Of a DNA stretch of 64,000 bases, positions 12,001 to 15,000 are shown one piece after another. The position numbers were made by a program. The stretch is from a virus, in the IMG/VR virus record IMGVR_UViG_3300018080_000118, positions 32,001 through 96,000 of that record, one strand, 5' to 3'. Every line of letters starts with the position of its first letter. The first letter of the stretch is position 1.

Positions 12001-15000
12001 CGGCGGCCTTACGGGCAACGTGGAGCTTCGCGCTGAGCATGGGGCCTACCAGACGCCGTACCGGAATGTCCAGTACAACCCGGACGCCGTACCCATCGGC
12101 GTTTCCTCCGTGACCACCAGCCCGGTCGCTCCAGCCTACGAGGGCCAGGTGACCACGATCGAGATCGGTGGCACTGGTCTGCCGGAGTCCACGTACCGGA
12201 CCCTCCCGTTCTACAACAGTGGGTCCCCGGTAGCTTTCGCGATGAACCGATTCTGGGACCTCCAGATACCCACGCCGACGGACGCCACGATCAAGGTCTT
12301 CGTGGACTACGGGCAGGCCGGGAACGACATCCTGCTGGAGATGGACAAGCCGGGCTTCCCCACAGCCTCGGACACCACGCCAGCCATCGTCGCCCAGCCT
12401 ACACCATCTGCCACGGATGCCTGGAGCGGCGGCACCTATCCAGGCGCGACGGGCACCCTGACCGTCAGCGACCCCGGAGGAACGAACAGCTTCGCCCCGG
12501 GCATCGAAATCTTTGCTACCGCCGGTTCGACGATCATCCCTCTTGGCCCAACTGTGTGGGTGGATCCCGACAATGCCACCACCACGTACACGATGCCTGC
12601 CACGGCCACACCAGGTGACGCCGTGACTCTGACGGTCACGAACTCGTCTGGACCGTCCTACACGTGGACGACGCAGAACGTGGCCGACGCCCCTGTTGAG
12701 ATCCAGCGCATTGTGTGGGCGCAGCAGCGCCCTGTCGAGGGCCGCAGTGCGGTTCCGGCAACCGTGTACTGCAGCAACCTCGATCCAGCAGCCACGGCGT
12801 CTATCGCTTCTGGGGCTACGCTGGACTCGTACCTTGTCGTCGGACAGACCATGGAGATCGAGGTGAGCTTCGCACAGCTCTCGGGAGGCACCCCGTTCAC
12901 CATTCAGATCGACAACCCGACGCCGGTGCCTAGCTCGGATAGCATCGGGGCTACAGTGGAGACCGAGGCCGACCCCATCGTTGGTGTCGAGATCTCGCCG
13001 CCGACCCCTGGTGTCAGCCGCACAATTCGTCTCGTAGGCAACAACCTGTACCCGCCTGACGCTTACTCTGTGGGCATGACGCCCTCGCTGACCCTAACCG
13101 CAAACCTGACTTGGGACTCTGCGCGTCAGACGAAGGGAGAGTGGCAGGGTACCGTGGATGTCACAGGGACTCCAGGGCAGGCCCTCGACCTGTCGATCAC
13201 TCGGCCGTCCGGGCGTACGTTCTCGCGAACGAATGTCATGGTCATCCGGCCGCTGGACCTCATCCCGAGCAGCATTAGCGCGTCACCGTCTGACCTCACC
13301 TCGGCCCAGCTGATGGAAGTCGAGTTCAGCGGGAACGATTTCGGCAGTGTGCGCTCCATCGACCTGGTGTGCGAGCAGCCGGATCGCCAGCCCATTGGGG
13401 CGAGCGCTACAGTGCCGTGCACCATCGTGGGGTCAACCAGCAGCCTCGTCCGGGTGCAGTGCTCGGTGCCCACCGGCAACCTCGGCCTGACGTACAAGGC
13501 GAACTTCTACAACAGCGTGCTCGATCTTCTGAAGAGCGAGGCTGGGATGTTCACCGTGGTCAAGAGCCCGAATGGTCCCGAGATCCTCAACAAGGCCACA
13601 CTTTGGTCCGTGGTCAACACCACCGAAGCTGTGGAGCAGACCCTCTCTGTCTCGCTGAATCCCAACACACCCATCAACGACAAGAACACCGAGATCGTCG
13701 GAACGAATATCATCCTCGTCTCGGTTACGGACATCAGCCCAGGAGGTTCTCCGGGTACCGTCTTCGACGTAAAATTCAGGAACGGCGCAGCCGGACAGGT
13801 GGCCGAGCTTGCCTTCTACAATAAGCTCGTCACGCCCGAGGAAAAGGATGTGGTGGTCTGGACGATCACCACGTAAAAAAGGGGGCGGACGTACTCGCCC
13901 CCTTCCGGCCGCTACTACCTCCGAAGAGGGTCGCTGCAGGGGCCTTGCCGCATTCCGCACGAGGACGAGATACTTTCGCATCTCGCCCAGGTGGGTCGGA
14001 TCTTGGAGGTAGCCGATCAGGCAGTTACCGTGATCGTTTTCGACCTCTCCGTCTTTTCTTGGATTTGGCATTGACCTTCTTTTCGACAAGTCGAACGAGG
14101 CCGTCGGCCAGCTCCTTTGCAAAGATGGTGAGCGCCACCTCCGCCACCCGCCCGAGACCAGGATTTACCATAGGACGCGTCCTCCTTTCGCTCGGGTGTA
14201 GCGACTATAAAATTGACGAATGCCCTGCGTAAGGGCATACTTCCAACGATATACTTCTGCCACAACTGGCGTGTGTTTTTCGGAGTCACGACATGGATAG
14301 CGCAATGCTGCGAATCCTCGGCGATACGGTTGGAACCGCTGTGGGTGAGCATACCCTGTTCCACCGGGGCATCATGAAACTCGCCGACCTGGACAGCAAT
14401 CCCGTCATGCAGGCACTGGCGGCGCAGATGCTCCAGCAACCGCCCGAGAACATGCCCATGCTGGTGAGTCTCTATGCGCAGAAGCTGGAAAAGGATCTGC
14501 GCGAGGACCTGCAGGGCGAGCAGGAGCTTGCCGAAGAGGAGACCGATCCTCTCCGCATGGAGAACGATCGGCTTCGTGCGATGGTGGAAAATCTGCGCAC
14601 GAGGATCCAGCTCATCGACAAGCAGAAGGAGCTCGGAAGACTGCAGGGCGAGATGGCCGCCACCCAGGAGATGTCACCCAACCCCGCTGCCGCTGCCGCA
14701 GCAGGAGGGCTTCCTGCTGAGGCCGGAGGGATGCCCCCCGAGGCCGCAGCCGCTGCGCAACAGCAGGAGCAGATGGCCATGATGCAGGCTGCACAGCAAG
14801 CAGCCCTTCAGCAGGCCGCAGCCGCTCAGCAGGCCGCCGCGCAGGGACAGCAGCAACAGGCTGCCCCAATAGTACAGGGGGCTCAGGGCGTAGGCCCAGT
14901 GGAAGCCGCCGCCGTTTAGGAGAAGATCCATGTTCAAGCTGGCCGGAAGAGTCCTCGACTTCTACGACGATCCGGACTTCGTGACCAACCTGACAGCCCA

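What the first reader, a model, noticed from the sequence alone, without database searches (positions are those of the whole stretch)
13875..14241. Hidden antisense transcription unit: 48-aa basic peptide plus highly structured RNA and its own terminator
Seen on the minus strand, in the middle of a 50-kb plus-strand module: a TATAGT -10 element and an AAAGGAGG SD partly overlapped by the palindrome AGGACGCGTCCT. These precede ORF 14171-14025 (amphipathic helix plus KSKKRRRGRKRSR tail; absent from the ORF track), about 120 nt of structured sequence, and a U-tailed terminator. Inference: the layout (small helical peptide with basic tail, occluded SD, structured 3' region) recalls type I toxin-antitoxin loci, although the helix is more charged than typical Fst/Ldr toxins. 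It could instead be a nucleic-acid-binding peptide with a regulatory RNA.
Basis: partly seen in the sequence, partly recalled or inferred. Interest (0 to 1): 0.72.

Follow-up and report, generated by a model that had tools for sequence, protein, structure and literature searches.

The report
Backward small gene cassette in phage
A real, conserved 48-codon gene with its own hairpins and terminator sits backwards between the tail-fibre genes and the next gene block of an uncultured large phage; it is an ordinary kind of phage add-on cassette, and what its peptide does is unknown.

Summary
In the 416-base gap 13877-14292, the minus strand carries a strong ribosome-binding site, a 48-codon frame (14171-14025), two tetraloop hairpins and a U-tailed terminator that ends on the stop codon of the convergent fibre gene.

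- **The frame is a real gene.** All 6 close relatives that include this gap keep a 42-57-codon minus-strand frame there, with the same ribosome-binding site and the same hairpin-terminator layout. Synonymous changes are in excess only in that frame (p 0.002 to 1e-7). Other metagenomes hold 48- and 42-residue homologues.
- **No known family.** Pfam, PHROGs, NCBIfam and PADLOC give no match.
- **The peptide.** It is one long amphipathic helix with a strongly basic tail (net +11) and is not hydrophobic enough to span a membrane. The positional counterparts in more distant relatives have a transmembrane-like helix, but homology between the two forms is not significant.
The minus-strand TATAGT promoter is not conserved (1 of 6 loci). 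The start-site fold is no more stable than shuffled sequence. No antisense RNA gene was found.

Best reading: a reverse "moron"-type accessory cassette for a small envelope-directed peptide. A type I toxin-antitoxin locus is unlikely. Interest is moderate to low.

The parts
13875..13904 (-). Intrinsic terminator of the minus-strand unit: 7 G-C-rich pairs (extendable by two A-U pairs), an 8-nt loop and six U. The U run overlaps the last two bases of the fibre gene's stop codon (13874-13876).
   Evidence: Sequence; folds. A U-tailed terminator is seen at the equivalent place in 5 relatives; L003 is cut at its contig end inside the last hairpin, so no U tail is seen there.
13918..13929 (-). Small hairpin with a UUCG tetraloop (4 bp).
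   Evidence: fold. A GGCC-UUCG-GG(C/U)C hairpin sits at the same relative place in L008, L025 and L023.
13963..13988 (-). 11-bp hairpin with a GAAA tetraloop in the 3' untranslated region.
   Evidence: A 10-12-bp hairpin follows the stop codon in L008, L025, L023, L005 and L004.
14025..14171 (-). 48-codon gene. The peptide is predicted as one long helix (residues 4-45): amphipathic in residues about 5-33, with a basic tail (net charge +11 overall).
   Evidence: Homologues: P0001, P0002, P0006 and L003:280..152. Synonymous excess is seen only in this frame.
14172..14188 (-). Ribosome-binding site AAAGGAGG (14188-14181) overlapping the palindrome AGGACGCGTCCT (14183-14172).
   Evidence: The 13 bases GGAGGACGCGTCC are identical in L003, although the flanks are about 73% identical. 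The strain in run X4 changes 14172, which leaves a 10-base palindrome.
14151..14196 (-). Predicted stem (14196-14191 with 14156-14151) that encloses the SD and start codon. Weak evidence.
   Evidence: L003 has an 8-bp equivalent. But z = +0.30 and -0.96 against shuffles, and the X4 strain breaks one pair at 14192 without compensation.
14204..14209 (-). TATAGT, a candidate -10 element for the minus-strand unit. Not conserved.
   Evidence: 8 of 12 matches to the sigma-70 consensus here; no such site in L003, L008, L025, L023 or L005.
14213..14241 (+). Neighbouring feature, not part of the unit: sigma-70-like promoter TTGACG-17-CATACT of the downstream plus-strand block. It lies back to back with the unit's 5' end.
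   Evidence: A like promoter is found in 5 of 6 loci, always 51-53 nt before the start of the 208-residue gene's homologue.

Best explanation
This is a self-contained, backward-facing accessory cassette (a 'reverse moron'). It is wedged between the end of the baseplate/tail-fibre genes and the promoter of the next plus-strand block, in a roughly 136-kb phage with no recognised integrase that encodes its own fused beta-beta' RNA polymerase and a sigma factor.

**Shown.**
- A monocistronic unit of about 330 nt: a short leader, a strong SD, a 48-codon gene under purifying selection, two tetraloop hairpins and an intrinsic terminator that stops minus-strand transcription at the fibre gene's stop codon.
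- The peptide is predicted as a single amphipathic helix with a strongly basic tail.
- Its positional counterparts in more distant relatives have a transmembrane-like helix plus a basic tail.

**Inferred.**
- The peptide acts at the cytoplasmic face of the inner membrane, with helix on or in the bilayer and the basic tail on anionic lipids. It would serve as an optional host-directed function, such as blocking entry of other phages or altering the envelope.
- The hairpins stabilise the 3' end and insulate the fibre gene.
- The plus strand has no U-tailed terminator after the fibre gene. Late read-through transcripts would therefore be fully antisense to this mRNA and would silence it late in infection.
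For: **Conservation.**
- Nine relatives have a downstream 376-residue protein at least 44% identical. Six of them include this gap: L003, L004, L005, L008, L023 and L025.
- All 6 of those 6 carry a 42-57-codon minus-strand frame with a GGAGG-type SD directly before the homologue of the 208-residue gene.

**Selection.**
- pN/pS is 0.56 for window-L003 (Fisher p 0.002) and 0.25-0.45 for three pairs of relatives (p 1.3e-7, 8.6e-4, 1.5e-7).
- There is no synonymous excess in the two other frames. The flanking genes give 0.23-0.33 (pN/pS).

**Databases.** Homologues of 48, 48 and 42 residues were called in other metagenomes.

**RNA.**
- All 7 loci show a stable hairpin or hairpins after the stop codon. 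The 6 that are not cut off end in a U-tailed terminator.
- The minus strand folds 6.2-14.9 kcal/mol better than the plus strand in 7 of 7 loci.
- In L008/L025/L023, all 25 predicted pairs are kept: 19 invariant, 6 changed on one side, 0 broken. The linker between the hairpins varies.

**Moron features.**
- GC3 is 0.57 against 0.72-0.84.
- Three more distant relatives (L014, L016, L020) join the two flanking plus-strand genes directly, 11-39 nt apart. Others hold different minus-strand genes there: L001, L002, L010/L011, L032 and L036.

**Peptide.** AlphaFold2 predicts a helix over residues 4-45, with pLDDT 93-94 for residues 11-30. Hydrophobic moment is 0.53 and net charge +11.

**Strain comparison.** There are 5 differences in the 416-base unit, against 16 third-position changes in 247 bases of the fibre gene's end.
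Against: - **No expression data.** No RNA run is listed.
- **Promoter unidentified.** The sigma-70-like match is 8 of 12 and is found in 1 of 6 loci.
- **Homology between the two peptide forms not shown.** Separate HMMs give no cross hit at E < 20 among 10,736 six-frame ORFs. hhalign gives P 0.001-0.002, probability 14-22%. Membrane action is therefore carried over from positional counterparts only.
- **Not hydrophobic enough.** The window's helix has a best 19-residue hydropathy mean of 1.08-1.42 in its group, against 1.89-2.25 in the other group. That is too charged to span a membrane.
- **No integrase or repressor recognised**. The classical prophage-benefit logic of morons may not apply.
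- **Weak covariation.** No compensatory double changes support the hairpins; only 3 sequences were compared.
- **Strain divergence may mislead.** The low divergence rests on single contigs of depth about 3 from one sample and could reflect recombination.
Confidence: 0.6

Rival explanations
1. Nucleic-acid-binding peptide. The amphipathic helix self-associates and the basic tails bind RNA or DNA. A possible target is the conserved palindrome at its own ribosome-binding site, which would give autoregulation.
For: - Net charge is +11, with +9 in the last 12 residues. The tail is kept in P0002.
- The helix is too polar for a membrane span.
- The 13 bases of SD plus palindrome are identical in L003 despite about 73% identity around them.
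Against: - Tail length and charge vary widely in the family, from +2 to +9 over the last 12 residues. This fits a generic cytoplasmic anchor better than a specific binding arm.
- The palindrome is not repeated as an operator: there are 2 exact copies in the genome, the other inside the RNA polymerase gene.
- The counterparts in relatives are transmembrane-like.
Confidence: 0.15
2. Type I toxin-antitoxin-like module. A small toxic peptide whose translation is held down by mRNA structure and by antisense RNA; here the antisense would be read-through from the convergent fibre operon rather than a dedicated small RNA.
For: - The size is under 60 residues.
- Relatives' counterparts have one hydrophobic helix plus a charged tail.
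- The SD and AUG lie inside a predicted stem in the window and in L003.
- The mRNA is highly structured.
- The plus strand lacks a U-tailed terminator after the fibre gene, so antisense read-through is plausible.
Against: - The window's peptide is not hydrophobic.
- No plus-strand promoter-like site overlaps the unit, and there is no Rfam match.
- Start-region folds are no better than shuffles in 6 of 6 loci, z from -0.96 to +1.07.
- One stem pair is broken in a natural strain.
- No toxin family matches in Pfam, NCBIfam or PADLOC.
Confidence: 0.07
3. Lysis accessory peptide of the 'disruptin' type: a cationic amphipathic helix that breaks the outer membrane at the end of infection.
For: The physical features match those given for phiKT gp28, which is 56 residues, net +7 and predicted amphipathic helical (10.1101/515445, passages read). 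Here: 48 residues, net +11, helix. No spanin, holin or endolysin was recognised anywhere in this genome, so its lysis genes are unassigned.
Against: - gp28 lies between the endolysin and holin genes. This gene has no recognisable lysis gene beside it and faces against the late genes.
- Its composition is foreign to the phage.
- It is absent from more distant relatives.
Confidence: 0.06
4. Not a gene. The conserved element would be a non-coding structured RNA or a regulatory spacer, and the frame would be incidental.
For: - GC3 of 0.57 is far below that of the phage's genes, and composition is flat across all three codon positions of the gap.
- Strong RNA structure.
- The whole gap is unusually invariant between strains.
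Against: - A frame-specific excess of synonymous change in four comparisons.
- The frame is intact, with an SD, in 7 of 7 loci across dS > 1.
- Conservative replacements across five group members.
Confidence: 0.1

Closest known systems
Morons of lambdoid phages, in particular the HK97 gene 15 moron (PMC3594210, abstract and passages read).
   Same: A single small gene placed inside the tail-gene region as an independent unit. It has its own terminator and a GC content unlike its neighbours, and is absent from some related phages. HK97 gp15 is a small inner-membrane protein, like the transmembrane-type counterparts in this phage's relatives.
   Different: - No sequence similarity was found: the Pfam and PHROGs scans of the peptide gave no family at all.
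- The host phage shows no integrase.
- The promoter is not identified.
- This phage's peptide is amphipathic, not membrane-spanning.
- The exclusion function is untested.
The P22 'ant moron' between gene 16 and the tailspike gene (PMC2629481, passages read).
   Same: A variable, independently expressed island at one fixed junction next to the receptor-binding gene of the late region. Its content differs among related phages, and it is absent from some. That paper reports that it is thought to affect read-through transcription into the neighbouring late gene.
   Different: The P22 island carries repressors, an antirepressor, the sar antisense RNA and sieA. Here there is one ORFan peptide gene, followed in some relatives by other unknown genes.
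PeSL cassettes (promoter-early stem-loop plus ORFan) of T4-type phages (PMC2839356, passages read).
   Same: ORFan genes in a virulent large phage, bracketed by promoter and stem-loop terminator elements that isolate them transcriptionally.
   Different: PeSLs are a repeated, conserved motif family within one genome. The gap here has no repeat elsewhere in the genome, and the palindrome is not a repeated element.
Type I toxin-antitoxin toxins, such as the Fst/Ldr and TisB classes (abstracts seen in the listing: PMC8309996, PMC8594479, PMC11264685).
   Same: Under 60 residues, helical, with a charged tail and a structured mRNA. Relatives' counterparts have one hydrophobic helix.
   Different: No antitoxin RNA was found. 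The window's peptide is not hydrophobic. SD sequestration is not significant. There is no family match.
phiKT gp28 'disruptin' (10.1101/515445, passages read).
   Same: A small, strongly cationic, amphipathic helical phage peptide without homologues.
   Different: Gene position and orientation differ: it is not in a lysis cassette and faces against the late genes. Function is untested.

Membership tests
Moron (independent add-on transcription unit in a phage operon) | Extra DNA between genes that are adjacent in related phages | tested here: met
   In L014, L016 and L020 the upstream plus-strand gene and the homologue of the 208-residue gene are 11-39 nt apart, with no minus-strand gene between them. 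The window has a 416-base gap.
Moron (independent add-on transcription unit in a phage operon) | Own terminator | tested here: met
   U-tailed hairpin at 13904-13875. An equivalent is present in the 5 relatives whose sequence reaches that far.
Moron (independent add-on transcription unit in a phage operon) | Own promoter | tested here: inconclusive
   An 8-of-12 sigma-70-like site in the window only, 1 of 6 loci. The phage has its own sigma factor and polymerase, so the consensus used may not apply.
Moron (independent add-on transcription unit in a phage operon) | Base composition unlike the neighbours | tested here: met
   GC3 is 0.57 against 0.72-0.84 in 15 genes. GC is 0.55-0.57 in the gap against 0.62-0.69 upstream.
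Moron (independent add-on transcription unit in a phage operon) | Expressed independently of the surrounding operon | not testable with these tools
   No RNA run is listed for this DNA.
Type I toxin-antitoxin system | Small toxic protein, typically a hydrophobic membrane peptide under 60 residues | tested here: not met
   Size is met (48 residues). Hydrophobicity is not: the best 19-residue Kyte-Doolittle mean is 1.08, below the customary 1.6 cut-off (the cut-off is recalled, not from a call). Relatives' counterparts reach 1.89-2.25. Toxicity was not tested.
Type I toxin-antitoxin system | Antisense or divergent small RNA antitoxin that pairs with the toxin mRNA | tested here: inconclusive
   The only plus-strand promoter-like site (14213-14241) points away from the unit. 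There is no Rfam match. A non-consensus promoter or read-through antisense cannot be excluded.
Type I toxin-antitoxin system | Translation start sequestered in mRNA structure | tested here: inconclusive
   Stems enclose the SD and AUG in the predicted folds, but z is -0.96 to +1.07 against shuffles in 6 of 6 loci. One pair is broken in a natural strain.
Disruptin (phiKT gp28 type) | Small cationic amphipathic helical peptide | tested here: met
   48 residues, net +11, hydrophobic moment 0.53; helix over residues 4-45.
Disruptin (phiKT gp28 type) | Encoded within the lysis cassette and expressed with the late lysis genes | tested here: not met
   No endolysin or holin family was found in 38 + 57 proteins (Pfam) or 103 proteins (PHROGs) of this genome. 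The gene faces against the late genes.
Disruptin (phiKT gp28 type) | Complements a spanin defect or disrupts the outer membrane | not testable with these tools
   Needs the lambda Rz/Rz1 complementation assay.
HK97 gp15 / YebO-like exclusion proteins | Sequence membership | tested here: not met
   No family at all in Pfam (E up to 0.01) for the window peptide, and none in PHROGs, NCBIfam or PADLOC for the window peptide and four relatives.
HK97 gp15 / YebO-like exclusion proteins | Inserts in the inner membrane and blocks genome entry of incoming phage | not testable with these tools
   The host is unknown and the phage uncultured. Only hydropathy is available.

The most novel reading that the evidence does not exclude
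A timing switch built from convergent transcription in a virulent phage. A membrane- or nucleic-acid-active cationic peptide would be made only before late transcription begins. Its mRNA, capped by tetraloop hairpins, would then be erased by fully complementary read-through from the tail-fibre operon. This would be a phage-borne, antitoxin-free analogue of a type I toxin-antitoxin pair. The two peptide forms (amphipathic and membrane-spanning) would be diverged versions of one ancestral effector.
Probability: 0.1. Interest if true: 0.65.

Novelty: new member of a known kind. Interest (0 to 1): 0.38.

Why it matters
- **A real gene that length and codon-usage filters would tend to miss.** Its GC3 is 0.57, against 0.72-0.84 in 15 other genes of this phage. 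Comparative evidence alone establishes it as real, so similar scans could recover such genes elsewhere.
- **A fixed accessory-gene slot.** It marks a slot beside the tail-fibre genes in a poorly known clade of large environmental phages that carry a fused beta-beta' RNA polymerase and their own sigma factor. Such slots often hold host-directed or anti-competitor functions.
- **A tractable candidate.** The peptide family has no annotation, is short enough to synthesise and is strongly cationic. Membrane activity or exclusion could therefore be tested cheaply.
- **Not a new principle.** Reverse add-on cassettes in tail regions are well known.

Tried and rejected
- **tRNA and RNA family scans of the window:** none found.
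- **Similar DNA in 50,697 phage records:** none.
- **Repeats of the gap elsewhere in the genome:** none beyond 12-17-base chance matches.
- **A second reading frame after the stop codon, as a possible frameshifted longer gene:** no hit below E 0.18 in 45 loci. Dropped.
- **HMM of the six peptides against 10,736 six-frame ORFs of 45 loci plus the genome:** only the model's own sequences and L004 were found.
- **Peptide alignments against IMG/VR:**
  - The window's group gave nothing.
  - The other group gave only the contig already held.
- **Peptide alignments against 185,579 species genomes:**
  - The window's group gave nothing.
  - The other group gave one hit, which lies in the antisense frame of a 775-residue gene that I read by eye as a TonB-dependent receptor (not scanned). 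I count it as spurious.
- **Profile search of 1.84 billion representatives:** 6 hits at E up to 0.001.
  - I dropped 2 as repeat-driven: a 5,791-residue protein with 22 stretches, whose sequence I did not fetch, and a 246-residue Cys-rich repeat protein.
  - I kept 4.
- **ESM Atlas look-alikes:** best scores 0.83 and 0.87, below the 0.9 lead level, with no family.
- **Cargo genes of relatives' islands against Pfam and PHROGs:** 12 proteins gave no Pfam hit and one weak PHROGs hit at E 0.003.
- **A genome-wide promoter motif modelled on the conserved plus-strand promoter:** 3 matches only, so it is not a repeated phage promoter.
- **RNA evidence:** no RNA holder listed.
- **Four-copy complex prediction of the peptide:** no verdict, score 0.02 against a mark of 0.42.
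- **Literature:** the three searches looked for comparators. None could have found this unnamed peptide, so I make no claim about what is in print on it.
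Full report
**Setting.** The window is bases 32001-96000 of a single 135,946-base virus contig with 59% G+C.
- Plus-strand genes run almost without a break from the window's start to about 50 kb.
- Upstream of the finding lie baseplate and fibre-like genes, ending with a 1341-residue protein (9851-13876).
- Downstream lie a 208-residue Ala/Gln-rich protein (14293-14919), 376-, 212- and 641-residue proteins of no known family, a 2078-residue fused beta-beta' RNA polymerase (19548-25784), the large terminase and the head genes.
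- A sigma-70-family factor is encoded at 51947..50868.
- No integrase, endolysin or holin family was recognised in the 38 + 57 proteins scanned with Pfam, or in the 103 scanned with PHROGs.
- The finding occupies the 416-base gap 13877-14292. This is one of eight gaps over 370 bases in my crude gene call of the window.

**The observation.**
- SD AAAGGAGG lies at 14188-14181. The palindrome AGGACGCGTCCT lies at 14183-14172.
- ATG is at 14171, and the 48-codon frame ends at 14025.
- The 3' region folds into an 11-bp GAAA-loop hairpin (13988-13963), a 4-bp UUCG-loop hairpin (13929-13918) and a G+C-rich terminator hairpin followed by six U (13880-13875).
- The U run overlaps the last two bases of the fibre gene's stop codon.
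- TATAGT is at 14209-14204.
- The whole 346-nt RNA folds with z = -5.1; 0 of 100 shuffles fold as well.
- The plus strand reads the same hairpin followed by TTCC, not a U run. The terminator therefore serves the minus strand only.

**Is the frame a gene?**
- Composition argues against. GC3 is 0.57, against 0.72-0.84 in 15 phage genes, and the gap has flat composition at all codon positions.
- Comparison argues strongly for. I fetched 45 loci through the 376-residue neighbour.
- Nine relatives have a neighbour at least 44% identical. Three of them (L006, L007, L009) hold too little upstream DNA.
- All 6 of the remaining 6 (L003, L004, L005, L008, L023, L025) have a 42-57-codon minus-strand frame with a GGAGG-type SD directly before the homologue of the 208-residue gene.
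- L003 is the closest, with flanks about 70% identical in protein. Its frame is 50% identical over 38 residues (tblastn E 3e-8 within the loci).
- Nei-Gojobori counts show synonymous change in excess in the annotated frame only:
  - window-L003: pS 0.70, pN 0.39, Fisher p 0.002;
  - three pairs among L008, L023 and L025: p 1.3e-7, 8.6e-4 and 1.5e-7;
  - the two shifted frames: p 0.47-1.0.
- The flanking genes give pN/pS of 0.23 and 0.33 for window-L003.
- One caveat: the alignments were made on the protein in that frame. This matters little for the gap-free pairs but may flatter the window-L003 pair.
- The word-index search of 5.8 billion clusters returned a 48-residue protein differing at one residue and another 77% identical.
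- The profile search of 1.84 billion representatives added 42-, 43- and 55-residue members.
- The ESM Atlas holds the window's peptide letter for letter.

**Two forms of the peptide.**
- The window, P0001, P0002, L003 and P0006 form one group. They share an amphipathic helix and a basic tail. The best 19-residue hydropathy mean is 1.08-1.42, the hydrophobic moment 0.53-0.62 and the net charge +3 to +12.
- L008, L023, L025, P0005, L005/L004 and P0004 form a second group. They have a hydrophobic helix (1.89-2.25) followed by a short conserved motif and, in most, a basic tail.
- MAFFT aligns the two groups in one register, with a 12-residue gap in the first group.
- Homology is not established. 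HMMs built from each group alone do not find the other at E < 20 among 10,736 six-frame ORFs. hhalign gives P 0.001-0.002 and probability 14-22%.
- They are positional counterparts, and possibly diverged homologues.
- AlphaFold2 on the five-member alignment predicts one helix over residues 4-45, with mean pLDDT 80.5 and 93-94 for residues 11-30.
- No family in Pfam, PHROGs, NCBIfam or PADLOC matches any member tested.

**The RNA.**
- All 7 loci have a stable hairpin or hairpins soon after the stop codon. Five relatives carry a 10-12-bp hairpin there.
- The 6 loci that are not cut off end in a U-tailed terminator. L003 breaks off at the contig end inside its last hairpin.
- Z-scores of the 3' regions are -3.6 (window), -0.7 (L003, cut), -2.7, -1.3, -3.5, -3.6 and -4.3.
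- Read on the minus strand, most loops are UUCG or GNRA tetraloops.
- The minus strand folds 6.2-14.9 kcal/mol better than the plus strand in 7 of 7 loci; L004 and L005 are near-duplicates.
- In the L008/L025/L023 alignment, all 25 predicted pairs are kept: 19 invariant, 6 changed on one side, none changed on both sides. The linker between the hairpins is variable.
- The structure is therefore selected on the minus-strand RNA, but true covariation is not shown.
- Window and L003 share no detectable sequence in the 3' region. blastn similarity covers only 14100-14258. It is the architecture that is conserved, not the sequence.

**What did not hold up.**
- *Promoter.* The TATAGT site scores 8 of 12 against the sigma-70 consensus and has no counterpart in the 5 relatives.
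  - What is conserved in the divergent region is a plus-strand promoter: TTGACG-17-CATACT in the window and L003, and TTGnnn-16-TAGAAT in L008, L025 and L023.
  - It is found in 5 of 6 loci, always 51-53 nt before the start of the 208-residue gene's homologue.
  - This means the downstream block is its own transcription unit. It also means sequence conservation around the supposed minus-strand -10 cannot be credited to the small gene.
- *'Occluded SD'.* Predicted stems do enclose the SD and start codon. But the start-region folds are no more stable than shuffles in 6 of 6 loci, z from -0.96 to +1.07. A natural strain changes 14192 and breaks one pair without compensation.
- *Palindrome.* The 13 bases of SD plus palindrome core are identical in L003, which is notable. 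But the palindrome is not a repeated operator: there are 2 exact copies in the genome. The second group of relatives lacks it.
- *Antisense RNA gene.* No promoter-like site was found on the plus strand inside the unit.

**Population data.**
- Contigs of two runs from one sample (X4, X5) carry a related strain.
- Across the 416-base unit it differs at 5 places:
  - 13933;
  - 14136 and 14138, which lie in one codon and give the conservative replacement seen in P0001;
  - 14172;
  - 14192.
- The last 247 covered bases of the fibre gene differ at 18 places, 16 of them third codon positions.
- The 208-residue gene differs at 6 listed places, all third positions, within a contig piece that has 8 differences over 296 bases.
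- The unit is thus less diverged than the synonymous sites beside it. This fits constraint on most of its bases.
- The contigs have depth about 3, and a recombination boundary would look the same. I treat this as supporting evidence, not decisive.

**The slot.**
- In more distant relatives the same junction varies.
- L014, L016 and L020 join the flanking plus-strand genes directly (11-39 nt).
- L001, L002, L010/L011, L032 and L036 hold other minus-strand genes there, some with their own terminators.
- In L008, L025 and L023 further minus-strand genes of no known family follow the small gene's terminator.
- Together with the foreign composition and the unit's own terminator, this meets the definition of a moron:
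[quoted passage not shown] - The promoter remains the untested element.
- Earlier notes of this scan on other genomes describe similar backward cargo genes in tail regions. They are leads, not support.

**Mechanism and odds.**
- *Shown:* a conserved, selected small gene with a strong SD, a hairpin-rich 3' end and a one-way terminator abutting a convergent late gene.
- *Inferred:*
  - The peptide works at the inner face of the membrane or on a polyanion.
  - The hairpins protect the 3' end and shield the fibre gene from antisense transcription.
  - Late plus-strand read-through, not blocked by any U-tailed terminator, would be antisense to the whole mRNA and shut it off.
- My odds: cassette-plus-real-peptide reading about 0.6; nucleic-acid-binding variant 0.15; non-coding element 0.1; type I toxin-antitoxin 0.07; disruptin-type lysis peptide 0.06.
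- The peptide family is new and unannotated, but the kind of element is familiar. Hence 'new member of a known kind' and moderate-to-low interest.

Noticed in passing
window 19548-25784 (+) and 51947..50868 (-): A single 2078-residue protein carries both Rpb2-type (beta) and Rpb1-type (beta') domains, so it is a fused multisubunit-type RNA polymerase. The phage also encodes a sigma-70-family factor with regions 2 and 4.
   Followed up: partly
window 14213-14241 (+); L003, L008, L025, L023: A sigma-70-like promoter is kept at a constant 51-53 nt before the 208-residue gene's homologue in 5 of 6 loci. It marks the start of a separate plus-strand transcription unit, and a conserved U run lies just before that gene's SD.
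   Followed up: partly
genome 111560-112708 (-), outside the window (L048:16060-17208): A reverse transcriptase gene (RVT_1, E 1.2e-16). It could belong to a diversity-generating retroelement or a defence or anti-defence element. No template or variable repeats were looked for.
   Followed up: no
genome 96475-97617 and 97952-99328 (-), outside the window (L048): Family A DNA polymerase split into two reading frames about 330 bases apart. An intervening element or a natural split is possible.
   Followed up: no
L008:4075..3611, L025:3988..3437, L025:3650..3153, L023:3994..3740, L001:5049..4483, L010:3448..2777: The minus-strand island at this junction carries different genes of no known family in different relatives. 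L001 and L010 both encode proteins with strongly acidic tails. L023 and L025 share a small protein of about 80 residues.
   Followed up: partly
window 13591-13837 (+): The C-terminal end of the fibre-like gene is the most diverged stretch between strains: 18 differences in 247 bases, 16 at third codon positions. The unit next to it is nearly invariant.
   Followed up: partly
genome 124064-125042 (-), outside the window: Two further SD-preceded frames with low GC3 (71 residues at 0.55; 195 residues at 0.63). They may be other foreign add-on genes.
   Followed up: no
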